From the IMG/VR virus record IMGVR_UViG_3300028833_002934: a stretch of 17,365 nt of DNA. One strand, written 5' to 3'. Positions 10,879 to 11,521 of the stretch are shown here, one piece after another. Under the pieces are notes generated by a model. That model searched no databases, was not told the origin of the DNA, and worked only from the letters and a program-made list of their open reading frames with translations. Each line of letters starts with the position of its first letter. Positions within the stretch are counted from its first letter, which is position 1. Source of the DNA: a virus. The position numbers and the translations under genes were made by a program.

Positions 10879-10907
10879 TTGACTATCTTCAAAAAATTTT
10901 GTAAAAT
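10879..10907 (+). promoter_or_regulatory. Plus-strand sigma70-like promoter (TTGACT-17-TAAAAT) immediately upstream of the FNT-like gene
   Basis: TTGACT at 10879-10884, a 17 nt spacer, then TAAAAT at 10902-10907. Confidence 0.5.
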
Positions 10908-10912
10908 AATAA

Positions 10913-11521
10913 TTGAAGGATGTGATTTCTACGAGCTATTAGAAAAGTTTATGCGCTGGGCTATTAATTGGCCTGGGTGGTTTAGTGAATTTATCTGTTG
11001 GAGGAGGTTGGCTAGGAGCCCTCCTATTCTCTTTTGGTCTATTAGCTATTTGTTTAAATAATTATCAACTAGTAACTGGTTAGTTTGGCAATCTATATTA
11101 TAAAAAAATTGATATATTTGATATAATTTGTATGTTTTGTATTAATTTAATTGGAGTTTTTACTATTGCATTAATAGGTGGATTTGCCATGAAAGGTAAT
11201 TCATTAGAGCAAGTTTCTATTGCCGCACAAAAAATCGTGGCAAATCGTGCCAATTTAGTTTGGTATTAGCATATTGCCGCAGGAATAATATGCGGGATTT
11301 GTATTTAGATAGCAGTTCAACGAAAAGATTAGCCTCTTGGTATTATTTTACCAGTAATGGTTTTTATCCTTACTGGCGCAGAACACTGTATTGCTGATGG
11401 ATTTTATTATACAATTGCCGGTAAATTAATGGAGTGGCGCAATTTATTACAAATTTTTGAAGTATTTGGCGGCAATGCTATGGGAGCTTTATTAATATGT
11501 TATTTAAGTAAAGATGAATGA
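10913..11521 (+). CDS. FNT-family (formate/nitrite transporter-like) membrane channel, ~200 aa, with 5 in-frame TAG codons. The start codon is uncertain (TTG 10913 or GTG 10922).
   Basis: A single plus-strand frame runs from the double TAA at 10907-10912 to TGA at 11519-11521. Its only interruptions are TAG at 10940, 11081, 11267, 11306 and 11330. The translation carries the FNT signature region ...ILPVMVFILTGAEHCIADGFYY... (compare E. coli FocA LPVAMFVASGFEHSIANMF). It also has GGGWLGALLFSFGLLAICL (FocA GGICFSLGLILCV) and the C-terminal FGGNAMGALL (FocA GNIIGGGLL). Confidence 0.6.

What the first reader, a model, noticed from the sequence alone, without database searches (positions are those of the whole stretch)
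10879..11521. Plus-strand FNT-family anion channel gene with five recoded TAGs, inserted divergently among minus-strand genes
The only sizeable plus-strand gene encodes a compact (~200 aa) formate/nitrite-transporter-family protein. The hallmark ...SGAEHCIAD/N... motif and the Gly-rich TM segments match FocA/NirC-type channels as remembered. It has its own TTGACT-17-TAAAAT promoter whose predicted start point lies almost at the first codon, so the mRNA may be leaderless. An FNT channel (formate, nitrite, hydrosulfide or lactate) on a phage-like element would be an unusual auxiliary or metabolic gene, or a moron. Its five in-frame TAGs mean it is only expressed where TAG is decoded.
Basis: partly seen in the sequence, partly recalled or inferred. 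Interest (0 to 1): 0.7.

Follow-up and report, generated by a model that had tools for sequence, protein, structure and literature searches.

The report
Phage-borne minimal formate-channel gene
A giant gut phage that reads the TAG stop codon as glutamine carries an intact, stripped-down formate/nitrite-family channel gene, and because relatives of this gene in other large phages usually sit inside the operon for the formate-consuming anaerobic ribonucleotide reductase, it probably helps supply formate for making DNA building blocks.

Summary
A + strand frame from 10913 (TTG) or 10922 (GTG) to 11521 has five in-frame TAGs and no TAA or TGA in 202 codons. It encodes a 199-202 aa protein that passes Pfam PF01226 (E=4.7e-18). 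TAG reads as Gln: relatives carry CAG/CAA at three of the five TAG sites. pN/pS against a 93% identical relative is 0.22. A 52% identical ortholog folds confidently as a complete FNT protomer (TM-score 0.88 to FocA). The pore Thr and His and the constriction residues are kept. The FocA N-terminal gating helix is absent.

The element resembles TAG-recoded huge phages. Such genes are not rare: 71 IMG/VR contigs carry relatives. In 30 of 57 distinct viral lineages the gene lies within 6 kb of nrdD and/or nrdG, usually in the same operon. In bacterial genomes the figure is 2 of 80. Most of these NrdDs carry the formate-type signature.

My best reading is a formate channel that feeds class III ribonucleotide reduction (confidence about 0.5). 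In this window's clade, however, the gene stands alone behind its own conserved promoter, and I could not test whether the phage has an NrdD. I found no paper describing this link.

The parts
10874..10926 (+). Conserved promoter and leader block (TAAATTTGACTATCTTCAAAAAATTTTGTAAAATAATAATTGAAGGATGTGAT)
   Evidence: It is nearly invariant in the window, L001, L004 and L014, although the downstream proteins are only about 50% identical. Among the 366 loci held at that point it occurs only upstream of the FNT genes of this clade, once per locus.
10879..10907 (+). Sigma-70-type promoter match: TTGACT (10879-10884), 17 nt, TAAAAT (10902-10907)
   Evidence: It is the only zero-mismatch match in the window and scores 10 of 12 in the consensus scan. 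The count of such sites in the region is not above chance. The case for function rests on conservation.
10915..10920 (+). Shine-Dalgarno-like GAAGGA, overlapping an out-of-frame ATG-TGA (10920-10925)
   Evidence: Read from the sequence. It is conserved in L004 and L014, where an ATG start follows 11-12 nt downstream.
10913..11521 (+). FNT-family channel gene. The start is TTG 10913 or GTG 10922 and the stop is TGA 11519-11521. The product is 199-202 aa with TAG read as Gln.
   Evidence: establish the frame and the PF01226 hit. One search gives pN/pS of 0.22 against L001, with 7 synonymous and 1 non-synonymous change in the 73 codons upstream of the internal ATG 11132. Searches show that full-length orthologs start at the equivalent position.
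10940..10942 (+). In-frame TAG 1 (residue 7 counted from V at 10922)
   Evidence: It aligns with Arg in L004.
11081..11083 (+). In-frame TAG 2 (residue 54, directly after the pore Thr-Gly)
   Evidence: It aligns with a CAA/CAG-encoded Gln in L004 (LTGQFA).
11267..11269 (+). In-frame TAG 3 (residue 116, WYqHIAAG)
   Evidence: It is TAG in L001 and L004 as well. It is Gln in P0008 (WYQHIVAG), whose gene translates under the standard code.
11306..11308 (+). In-frame TAG 4 (residue 129, CIqIAV, in TM4)
   Evidence: It is Gln in P0008 (CIQVAV), whose gene translates under the standard code.
11330..11332 (+). In-frame TAG 5 (residue 137)
   Evidence: It is CAG (Gln) at the same site in the 93% identical relative L001.
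11075..11077 (+). Codon of the pore threonine (T52, equivalent to E. coli FocA T91) in the omega loop
   Evidence: It is invariant in the short-FNT alignment. The mapping to FocA comes from the profile alignment.
11384..11386 (+). Codon of the central pore histidine (H155, equivalent to FocA H209) in the S loop (GAEHCIAD)
   Evidence: It is invariant in every alignment row that covers this column, out of 138 short FNTs.

Best explanation

By homology the protein should form a pentamer. Each subunit would have its own narrow hydrophobic pore built from six membrane helices, two of them broken, with a threonine (T52) and a histidine (H155) at the centre. That is the arrangement FocA uses for proton-coupled passage of formate or formic acid.

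The protein lacks the cytoplasmic N-terminal helix through which FocA is gated. It would therefore act as an ungated passive channel for formate in the infected cell.

My preferred account of its use is this. Under anoxic gut or rumen conditions, deoxynucleotides are made by the class III ribonucleotide reductase NrdD, which consumes one formate per nucleotide reduced.

What is shown: the gene is intact and under selection; the family and fold; the conserved pore residues; TAG read as Gln; and the gene linkage in other phages. What is inferred: the substrate, the direction of flow, the link to NrdD in this particular phage, and the timing of expression.
For: **Family and fold**
- PF01226 scores E=4.7e-18.
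- A profile of the family hits FocA, HSC, LCIA, NirC and PfFNT structures at E from 1e-22 to 2e-9.
- The AlphaFold model of the 52% identical ortholog P0003 has pLDDT 93.5. Its best fold matches are FocA, with query-normalised TM-score 0.88, then HSC and PfFNT.
- The window protein aligns end to end with that model.

**Pore residues**
- The equivalents of FocA F75, L79, L89, T91, F202, E208, H209, A212 and N262 are all conserved.
- H209 is needed for formate uptake in FocA (PMC8914244).

**The gene is alive**
- pN/pS is 0.22.
- TAG aligns with CAG/CAA in relatives.
- The promoter block is conserved.

**Linkage in other phages**
- Among 57 distinct viral FNT lineages, 27 have NrdD and 24 have NrdG within 6 kb, 30 in the union.
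- These are mostly on the same strand and abutting. The gene orders are D-G-F in 10 lineages, D-F-G in 9 and F-D in 4.
- In bacterial genomes the figure is 2 of 80. Fisher's exact test gives p=2.6e-12.

**Type of the linked NrdDs**
- At least 20 of the 27 have the MGCR finger loop (M-R-C-R in L022; in four, the gene is split or intein-interrupted at the loop). An Asn was read at the 'third cysteine' site in 19 of them (in 17 as GRGN, in 2 as GRFN; the split L056 gene was not captured there).
- This matches the formate-requiring Prevotella copri enzyme (PMC11226230).

**Placement of the window protein**
- Its 12-residue pore signature FLLTRGFEHADN is identical to that of seven NrdDG-linked phage FNTs.
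- Its nearest relatives outside its own clade are mostly NrdDG-linked.

**Unlinked precedents**
- Phage phAss-1 (code 15 clade) carries NrdD 27 kb from its FNT.
- The contig of L023 gives an NrdD finger-loop pattern match elsewhere on the contig, not confirmed as NrdD.
Against: - In this window and in its whole clade (L001, L004, L014, L007, L367-L374) no NrdD or NrdG lies within the 10-20 kb available. The gene is a solitary unit among small genes of unknown function.
- I could not establish whether this phage encodes NrdD at all.
- Only 5 of 80 phage loci with closely related NrdDs have an FNT nearby, so the channel is dispensable for phage NrdD function.
- Three NrdD-linked lineages have a CCR-type NrdD, which may not use formate.
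- FNT substrate and direction of flow cannot be read from sequence.
- K156 is Arg and N213 is Asp here, with unknown effect.
- The gene has the highest TAG density in the window, 5 in 202 codons against about 0.9 expected (P=0.002). If recoded codons mark late genes, that fits poorly with an early nucleotide-supply role. However, NrdD, NrdG and FNT in the TAG-recoded locus L016 also carry TAGs.
- The viral lineages are not phylogenetically independent.
Confidence: 0.5

Rival explanations
1. The protein is a general weak-acid or anion valve unrelated to ribonucleotide reduction. It would export or equilibrate formate, lactate, nitrite or hydrosulfide to hold cytoplasmic pH and fermentation balance steady in the infected cell, or to detoxify it. 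On this view the gene is a host-derived 'moron' that improves host physiology during a long infection cycle.
For: - Solved or characterised FNT family members are named for formate, nitrite and bicarbonate carriers; hydrosulfide and lactate (HSC, PfFNT) are from my own knowledge.
- Pore residues do not discriminate subtypes.
- In this clade the gene stands alone with its own promoter.
- Short FNTs in gut bacteria have no conserved neighbour, so the ancestral role is not tied to NrdD.
- 27 of 57 viral lineages show no NrdD or NrdG within 6 kb.
Against: - This does not explain the strong, phage-specific linkage to nrdD and nrdG in about half of the lineages, which keeps its operon arrangement despite rearrangement.
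- No nitrite reductase, sulfite reductase or PFL gene was among the recurring neighbour families or the Pfam-annotated genes near any phage FNT examined.
- The window pore signature equals that of NrdDG-linked members.
Confidence: 0.3
2. The protein acts on the membrane late in infection. It would be a holin-like or pmf-dissipating factor that helps time lysis, or a superinfection-exclusion protein. Its many TAG codons would hold it back until the phage suppressor tRNA is active.
For: - TAG density is the highest in the window.
- Recoded stops are reported to be enriched in late and lytic genes of recoded phages (bioRxiv 10.1101/2021.08.26.457843, abstract seen; PMC10607447).
- It is a small multi-pass membrane protein.
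Against: - No endolysin or other lysis gene is recognisable next to it.
- There are no PHROGs or PADLOC hits.
- The full set of narrow-pore FNT residues is conserved, which argues for selective small-solute passage rather than hole formation.
- In other phages the gene sits in nucleotide-metabolism modules, not lysis cassettes.
- The promoter looks like a host sigma-70 type.
Confidence: 0.07
3. The gene is a decaying remnant, that is, a pseudogene interrupted by five stop codons and lacking a proper ATG start.
For: - Under the standard code the frame is broken five times.
- There is no in-frame ATG before 11132, and automated callers produced only a 129-aa product.
Against: - Only TAG interrupts the frame.
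- Three of the five TAGs align with CAG/CAA Gln in relatives.
- pN/pS is 0.22 overall and 0.04 in the N-terminal 73 codons.
- Other genes of the window also need TAG read as sense.
- Orthologs are full length across lineages that are 50% identical.
Confidence: 0.03

Closest known systems
FocA, the formate channel of E. coli, Salmonella and Vibrio cholerae (PDB 3KCU, 3Q7K, 3KLY; TC 1.A.16)
   Same: It is the best sequence and fold match. It shares the six-helix protomer with broken TM2 and TM5. The pore residues F75, L79, L89, T91, F202, E208, H209, A212 and N262 are conserved.
   Different: - The phage protein is about 200 aa against about 285.
- It lacks the N-terminal cytoplasmic domain of about 30 residues that gates FocA (PMC8914244; its action through PflB is from my own knowledge). 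It also lacks most loop insertions.
- K156 is Arg, N172 is Gly and N213 is Asp.
- It is not next to pflB.
- It scores far below the NCBIfam FocA cut-off, 36.9 against 290.1 bits.
Short (about 190-215 aa) FNT-family proteins of gut and rumen Clostridia, Bacilli and Prevotellaceae, uncharacterised and auto-annotated 'formate/nitrite transporter family protein'
   Same: They share the compact architecture and the invariant residues. They are 27-46% identical to the ortholog P0003, which was the query. They are the likely source of the phage genes.
   Different: - The bacterial copies have no conserved neighbour and are almost never next to nrdDG, 2 of 80.
- The phage copies form mostly separate branches of a rough tree.
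- This copy needs TAG to be decoded as Gln.
nrdD-nrdG-FNT modules of other large phages (for example L016, L020, L037, L042 from IMG/VR)
   Same: They belong to the same short-FNT family. The pore signature is identical in seven of these lineages. L016 is also TAG-recoded and carries TAGs in NrdD, FNT and NrdG.
   Different: There the channel gene lies inside or abutting the reductase operon. Here it is solitary, on the opposite strand to its neighbours, with a dedicated conserved promoter.
Phage-encoded reductant suppliers for ribonucleotide reductase (T4 thioredoxin NrdC, NrdH-type redoxins)
   Same: The logic is analogous (inference from my own general knowledge): the phage brings both the reductase and the means to keep it supplied with reducing equivalents.
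   Different: Those are soluble redox proteins serving class I or II enzymes. This would be a membrane channel delivering a small-molecule reductant to a class III enzyme.
phAss-1 (OQ749652.1), a 136-kb phage of the 'Caudoviricetes code 15 clade'
   Same: It is a TAG-recoded gut phage with a short FNT gene (WIC39672.1, annotated as hypothetical protein) that is unlinked to its NrdD.
   Different: Its FNT is only distantly related to the short-FNT family (27% identity to the L037 FNT used as query). It has no in-frame TAG and keeps Asn at the N172 position. Its genome is smaller. The phAss-1 paper does not mention the gene.

Membership tests
Formate/nitrite transporter family (Pfam PF01226, TC 1.A.16) | Significant match to the family profile above the curated threshold, over most of the profile | tested here: met
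   65.9 bits against a cut-off of 34.6, E=4.7e-18, profile positions 24-234 of 240. All 40 homologs found carry PF01226.
Formate/nitrite transporter family (Pfam PF01226, TC 1.A.16) | Aquaporin-like protomer of six transmembrane helices, with TM2 and TM5 broken by the omega and S loops | tested here: met
The model has pLDDT 93.5 and pTM 0.89. Its TM-score to FocA 3KLY is 0.88. The window protein aligns over its full length to the modelled helices.
Formate/nitrite transporter family (Pfam PF01226, TC 1.A.16) | Central pore histidine (FocA H209) and threonine (T91), plus the hydrophobic constriction residues | tested here: met
   H155, T52, F36, L40, L50, F148, A158 and N185 are present. They are invariant in every alignment row that covers those columns, out of 138 short FNTs.
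Formate/nitrite transporter family (Pfam PF01226, TC 1.A.16) | Conserved vestibule lysine (FocA K156) | tested here: inconclusive
   It is replaced by Arg109, so the positive charge is kept. Arg occurs in 20 of 57 viral and 7 of 81 bacterial short FNTs.
Formate/nitrite transporter family (Pfam PF01226, TC 1.A.16) | Homopentamer that conducts small monovalent anions or weak acids | not testable with these tools
   No multimer prediction or transport assay is available here.
NCBIfam TIGR00790 (fnt subfamily) and TIGR04060 (FocA equivalog) | Score above the curated cut-off | tested here: not met
   31.4 against 232.3 bits, and 36.9 against 290.1 bits. The protein is too short and too divergent to be named FocA.
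FocA proper | N-terminal cytoplasmic gating domain and linkage to pflB | tested here: not met
   The protein starts about 6 residues before TM1. No PFL gene was recognised in the window or in related loci.
NirC / HSC subtypes | Linkage to nitrite reductase (nirBD) or sulfite reductase (asrABC) genes | tested here: not met
   No such genes were found in the window or in the flanks of related loci. There is no diagnostic pore residue to test.
Code 15 (TAG read as Gln) recoded phage | In-frame TAGs in several genes, at positions where relatives have Gln codons | tested here: met
   Reading TAG as sense raises the summed length of ORFs of 100 codons or more from 4022 to 5280 codons. TAG aligns with CAG/CAA at residues 54, 116, 129 and 137 of the FNT. 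Gene calls in the public collection already use Q at these sites.
Code 15 (TAG read as Gln) recoded phage | Suppressor tRNA (anticodon CUA) in the genome | not testable with these tools
   None was found in the window or in L001, L004 or L014. A CTA-anticodon tRNA is present near the FNT of the unrelated TAG-recoded locus L023.
Phage nrdD-nrdG-FNT module | FNT gene adjacent to, and co-oriented with, NrdD and/or NrdG | tested here: not met
   No NrdD or NrdG was found in the window or in any locus of its clade.
Phage nrdD-nrdG-FNT module | NrdD encoded elsewhere in the same genome | not testable with these tools
   Attempts could not reach the clade's long contigs.

The most novel reading that the evidence does not exclude
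Minimal FNT channels are a previously unrecognised accessory of the phage class III ribonucleotide reductase system. Large phages of anaerobic gut and rumen bacteria would import their own reductant, formate, so that phage DNA synthesis becomes coupled to the extracellular formate pool of the community. In the clade of this window, the channel would have been detached from the operon and placed under a dedicated, highly conserved, possibly regulated promoter.
Probability: 0.4. Interest if true: 0.75.

Novelty: new variant of a known kind. Interest (0 to 1): 0.62.

Why it matters
If the reading is right, phage replication in anoxic habitats depends partly on a cross-feeding metabolite, formate, that is already central to gut and rumen ecology. 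It would add a membrane channel to the list of phage auxiliary genes that service ribonucleotide reduction.

It would also give structural biologists a natural minimal FNT of about 200 aa, with no N-terminal gate. That could help separate pore chemistry from gating in FocA-type channels.

On the practical side, the gene is miscalled in public data. It appears as a 129-aa fragment, as 44-64-aa pieces, or as 'hypothetical protein', because of TAG recoding and a non-ATG start. The finding is therefore also a caution for annotation.

Tried and rejected
**Steps that failed or gave nothing**
I used the ortholog P0003 instead.
2. I tried three ways to learn whether the window's phage encodes NrdD. 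A viral-contig scan with the L016 NrdD returned 80 other phages and none of the clade's contigs.
3. Extending the window through exact-protein look-ups reached only contigs of 18 kb or less, with no new annotated genes.
4. PHROGs and PADLOC gave nothing for the FNT or its two neighbours. Pfam and PHROGs gave almost nothing for the other window genes.
A narrower alignment worked.
6. Thomasclavelia phages TR-TP1 and TR-TP2 have an NrdD 72% identical to an FNT-linked one. I checked TR-TP1 as a possible cultured model, and it has no FNT.
7. Literature searches for phage FNT, FNT as an auxiliary metabolic gene, and FNT linked to NrdD found nothing relevant. Wei et al. 2014 could not be read.

**Readings I rejected**
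- Pseudogene.
- Defence gene.
- A member of a repeated phage promoter class: the promoter block is unique to this gene.
- A Bacteroidetes-type promoter: no TAnnTTTG motif is visible.
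Full report
**1. The observation**

On the + strand, the frame that opens at TTG 10913 (GTG at 10922) runs to TGA 11519-11521. It contains five TAG codons, at 10940, 11081, 11267, 11306 and 11330, and no TAA or TGA. The other two + frames of the same stretch contain 15 and 11 TAA/TGA stops. This is the longest TAA/TGA-free + strand frame in the window. At the window's base composition (31% G+C), 202 codons without those two stops have a probability of about 8e-6. 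The hexamers TTGACT and TAAAAT, 17 nt apart, are at 10879-10907. The gene is the largest but not the only + strand frame: 12840-13292 is another, with three TAGs.

**2. TAG is read as glutamine**

Treating TAG as sense lengthens several minus-strand genes in the window as well. The decisive evidence is comparative.
- In the 93% identical relative L001, the codon at 11330 is CAG.
- In the 50% identical ortholog L004, the residue equivalent to TAG 11081 is a CAA/CAG-encoded Gln, while two Gln codons of the window are TAG there.
- The 50% identical protein P0008 has Gln at the WYQHI and CIQ positions, and its gene translates under the standard code.
- Against L001, pN/pS is 0.22. In the 73 codons upstream of the internal ATG (11132) that automated callers chose as the start, there are 7 synonymous changes and 1 non-synonymous change. 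The N-terminal third is therefore translated, and the 129-aa database entries (P0001, P0002) are truncated calls.

The gene has 5 TAGs in 202 codons, against about 0.9 expected from the rest of the window (P=0.002).

**3. What the protein is**

With Q at the TAG sites, the 199-aa product matches Pfam PF01226 (Form_Nir_trans) at 65.9 bits (cut-off 34.6) over profile positions 24-234 of 240. It falls far below the NCBIfam cut-offs for the fnt subfamily and for FocA. It has no PHROGs family.

Alone, it finds Vibrio cholerae FocA among solved structures (E=1e-4). A profile of it and 38 homologs finds FocA, HSC, LCIA, NirC and PfFNT at E from 1e-22 to 2e-9.

The structure tool would not accept the Q-substituted sequence, so I modelled the 52% identical, syntenic ortholog P0003. 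The model has pLDDT 93.5 and pTM 0.89. Its best structural matches are FocA (query-normalised TM-score 0.88), HSC and PfFNT. The window protein aligns end to end with the modelled helices: TM1, TM2a, omega loop, TM2b, TM3, TM4, TM5a, S loop, TM5b and TM6.

The pore is therefore complete. What is missing relative to FocA is the cytoplasmic N-terminal domain of about 30 residues, plus loop insertions.

**4. Pore residues**

Mapped through the profile alignment to E. coli FocA, the following are all conserved and are invariant in every alignment row that covers them, out of 138 short FNTs:

| Window residue | FocA equivalent |
|---|---|
| F36 | F75 |
| L40 | L79 |
| L50 | L89 |
| T52 | T91 |
| F148 | F202 |
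| E154 | E208 |
| H155 | H209 |
| A158 | A212 |
| N185 | N262 |

There are three differences: K156 is Arg109, N172 is Gly125 and N213 is Asp159. All three variants are common in the family.

[quoted passage not shown] A protein that keeps the His/Thr pair and lacks the gate would be expected to behave as an ungated, uptake-competent channel. This is inference.

**5. Promoter and start codon**

A 53-nt block (10874-10926) is nearly invariant in the window, L001, L004 and L014, although the proteins are only about 50% identical. It contains the -35 and -10 hexamers, the spacer, and GAAGGATGTGAT. Among all 366 loci held at that point, it occurs only in front of this gene in this clade. That supports a real, gene-specific promoter. 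The conserved spacer hints at a regulator-binding site (inference).

In L004 and L014 an ATG follows GAAGGA by 11-12 nt. Those mRNAs therefore have a leader of about 25 nt with a ribosome-binding site. In the window and in L001 that ATG is absent. The only canonical in-frame starts are TTG 10913, at the predicted transcription start, and GTG 10922, 1 nt after GAAGGA. A leaderless or near-leaderless start is thus possible here but unproven, and it is not a clade feature.

**6. The element**

Most neighbouring genes have no recognisable family. The exception is an 815-aa protein (7978-10425, minus strand) with major-vault-protein shoulder and repeat domains. Its only matches among 50,697 GenBank phage records are three uncultured huge phages of 462-735 kb, at about 40-41% identity.

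The closest relative of the window lies on a 249.7-kb contig. The next clade members lie on contigs of 105.9 kb and 239.6 kb, the last of which is in IMG/VR. I therefore treat the element as a TAG-recoded huge phage. No capsid or terminase gene was seen in the window itself.

**7. How unusual is an FNT on a phage, and what keeps it company?**

In GenBank phages the family is almost absent. The window protein finds nothing. A second family member finds only a 4.6-kb fragment and phAss-1, where the gene is annotated as hypothetical. One viral UniProt entry is auto-named formate/nitrite transporter.

In IMG/VR, however, 71 contigs carry a relative, many of them 60-380 kb long. A standard-code 255-kb contig with phiKZ-like and tail-tube genes carries another.

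I clustered all ORFs within 6 kb of the FNT gene in 85 loci. These fall into 58 FNT lineages at 85% identity, 57 of them viral. The commonest neighbours, with identities confirmed by Pfam, were:

| Neighbour | Lineages |
|---|---|
| NrdD (PF13597, E from 1e-115 to 4e-150) | 27 |
| NrdG-type activase | 24 |
| dUTPase | 18 |
| NAD-dependent DNA ligase | 7 |
| ATP-dependent DNA ligase | 6 |
| ThyX | 5 |

Thirty of the 57 viral lineages have NrdD and/or NrdG nearby. These are nearly always on the same strand, with gaps of a few bases. The gene orders are D-G-F (10 lineages), D-F-G (9), F-D (4) and others.

Among 80 loci from bacterial genomes, mainly gut and rumen Clostridia, Bacilli and Prevotellaceae MAGs, only 2 show this linkage, and no other neighbour is conserved. 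Fisher's exact test gives p=2.6e-12.

The reverse relationship is weak. Of 80 phage loci with NrdDs close to that of L016, only 5 have an FNT within 3 kb. The channel is therefore an optional add-on.

**8. The linked reductases are of the formate type**

Class III reductases of E. coli, T4 and L. lactis use formate as reductant, while some others use thioredoxin (PMC4390871; PMC4493059). The FNT-linked NrdD of L020 is most similar to the Prevotella copri enzyme (8P23, E=5e-112) and to T4 NrdD. It is only distantly similar to the Thermotoga enzyme.

P. copri NrdD requires formate and has Asn in place of the third cysteine (PMC11226230). At least 20 of the 27 NrdD-bearing lineages have the MGCR finger loop (M-R-C-R in L022; in four, the gene is split or intein-interrupted at the loop). 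An Asn was read at the 'third cysteine' site in 19 of them, as GRGN in 17 and GRFN in 2. Three have a CCR-type loop.

**9. Where the window's gene fits**

Its 12-residue pore signature, FLLTRGFEHADN, is identical to that of seven NrdDG-linked phage FNTs. Outside its own clade, its nearest relatives by BLAST and by distance are mostly NrdDG-linked phage proteins. They include L016, a TAG-recoded phage with the order NrdD-FNT-NrdG and TAGs in all three genes. The tree is a neighbour-joining sketch without support values.

In the window's clade, however, the gene is solitary. No NrdD or NrdG is present in any of the flanks I could reach, and three attempts to locate an NrdD elsewhere on the clade's long contigs failed for technical reasons. 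One clear precedent shows that an unlinked FNT can coexist with an NrdD in the same phage: phAss-1 has its NrdD 27 kb away. The contig of L023 gives only an unconfirmed NrdD-motif hit elsewhere on the contig.

**10. Mechanism and rivals**

My best account is a passive formate/formic-acid channel that keeps class III ribonucleotide reduction supplied in an anoxic host (confidence about 0.5). The steps that are shown, and those that are inferred, are listed under the best explanation.

A rough calculation of my own suggests the demand is not trivial. A burst of 100 genomes of 250 kb needs about 5e7 reductions, which is tens of millimolar in a 1-fL cell.

The rivals are:
- a general weak-acid or anion valve unrelated to NrdD (0.3);
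- a late membrane-active or lysis-timing protein (0.07), suggested only by the TAG density;
- a pseudogene (0.03), which the comparative data contradict.

Formate could also feed one-carbon metabolism. ThyX is a recurrent neighbour. I regard this as a variant of the main hypothesis.

**11. Novelty**

The protein is a member of a known superfamily, in a compact uncharacterised subfamily. What appears to be new is its recurrent presence in large phages and its operon linkage to formate-type NrdD/NrdG. I found no paper on either within the searchable library. I rate it a new variant of a known kind.

Noticed in passing
window 13291-13770, with 13785-13860 and 13919-13989: There is an array of at least 8-10 copies of a 29-42-nt repeat (CGTCAAAAAGTTGGTAAATTTTACCGAGTTT). 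Each copy holds the palindrome GGTAAA(T/A)TTTACC, and copies occur in both orientations. An extremely AT-rich stretch follows, and then AAAAATGAAATGAAA repeats. This looks like an iteron/replication-origin region or an operator array, about 1.8 kb from the FNT gene. The + strand ORF 12840-13292 (150 codons, 3 TAGs) ends exactly at the array.
   Followed up: no
window 10460-10509, 12336-12385, 14877-14926, 15089-15138, 15204-15253, 15287-15336 (minus strand); 15650-15678 (+ strand): A repeated family of near-consensus promoters, TTGA(A/T)W-17-TGATATAAT, with an extended -10 element. They are typical of Gram-positive hosts and of early phage genes. The FNT promoter does not belong to this family. 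The region 12.5-17.4 kb has low coding density and many small ORFs.
   Followed up: partly
window 7978-10425 (minus strand): An 815-aa protein with major-vault-protein shoulder (E=2.4e-20) and Vault_3 repeat domains and a long coiled-coil tail. It has one TAG, at codon 6. Its only GenBank phage matches are three uncultured huge phages (LR756500, LR756501 and LR756503; 462-735 kb) at about 40-41% identity.
   Followed up: partly
window 10920-10925: An out-of-frame ATG-TGA 'start-stop' lies directly after GAAGGA. It overlaps the candidate GTG start and is conserved in L001, L004 and L014. It could be a minimal upstream ORF or a coincidence.
   Followed up: no
L023 1670-12434 (IMGVR_UViG_3300045988_172743): In this TAG-recoded phage, the FNT gene (5986-6534) sits inside an array of 22 tRNA genes plus a tmRNA gene. 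The tRNAs include one with a CUA anticodon, which ARAGORN calls tRNA-Pyl and which is presumably the TAG suppressor.
   Followed up: no
L018, L024, L056, L058 (NrdD genes next to FNT); also L245 (Thomasclavelia phage TR-TP1): Many FNT-linked nrdD genes are interrupted exactly at the finger-loop MG|CR site, either by an intervening ORF (an HNH endonuclease in TR-TP1) or by an intein-like insert (L058, 1031 aa). This echoes the report that nrdD genes of Jug phages are fragmented, with insertions commonly encoding endonucleases or intein-splicing domains (PMC12880540).
   Followed up: no
L010 905-2611: On one contig of the P0017 group, a TonB-dependent-receptor-like gene (CarbopepD_reg_2 and Plug domains) lies 192 nt upstream of the FNT gene, separated by a 50-aa ORF. 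In sister contigs that position holds phage genes. This could be a host-derived insertion or an assembly junction.
   Followed up: no
Public protein collection, clusters of P0001, P0002 and P0005: The gene is mis-called in public data. It appears as a 129-aa product from the internal ATG, and as 43-64-aa fragments where the standard code was used. The phAss-1 homolog is annotated as hypothetical protein.
   Followed up: yes
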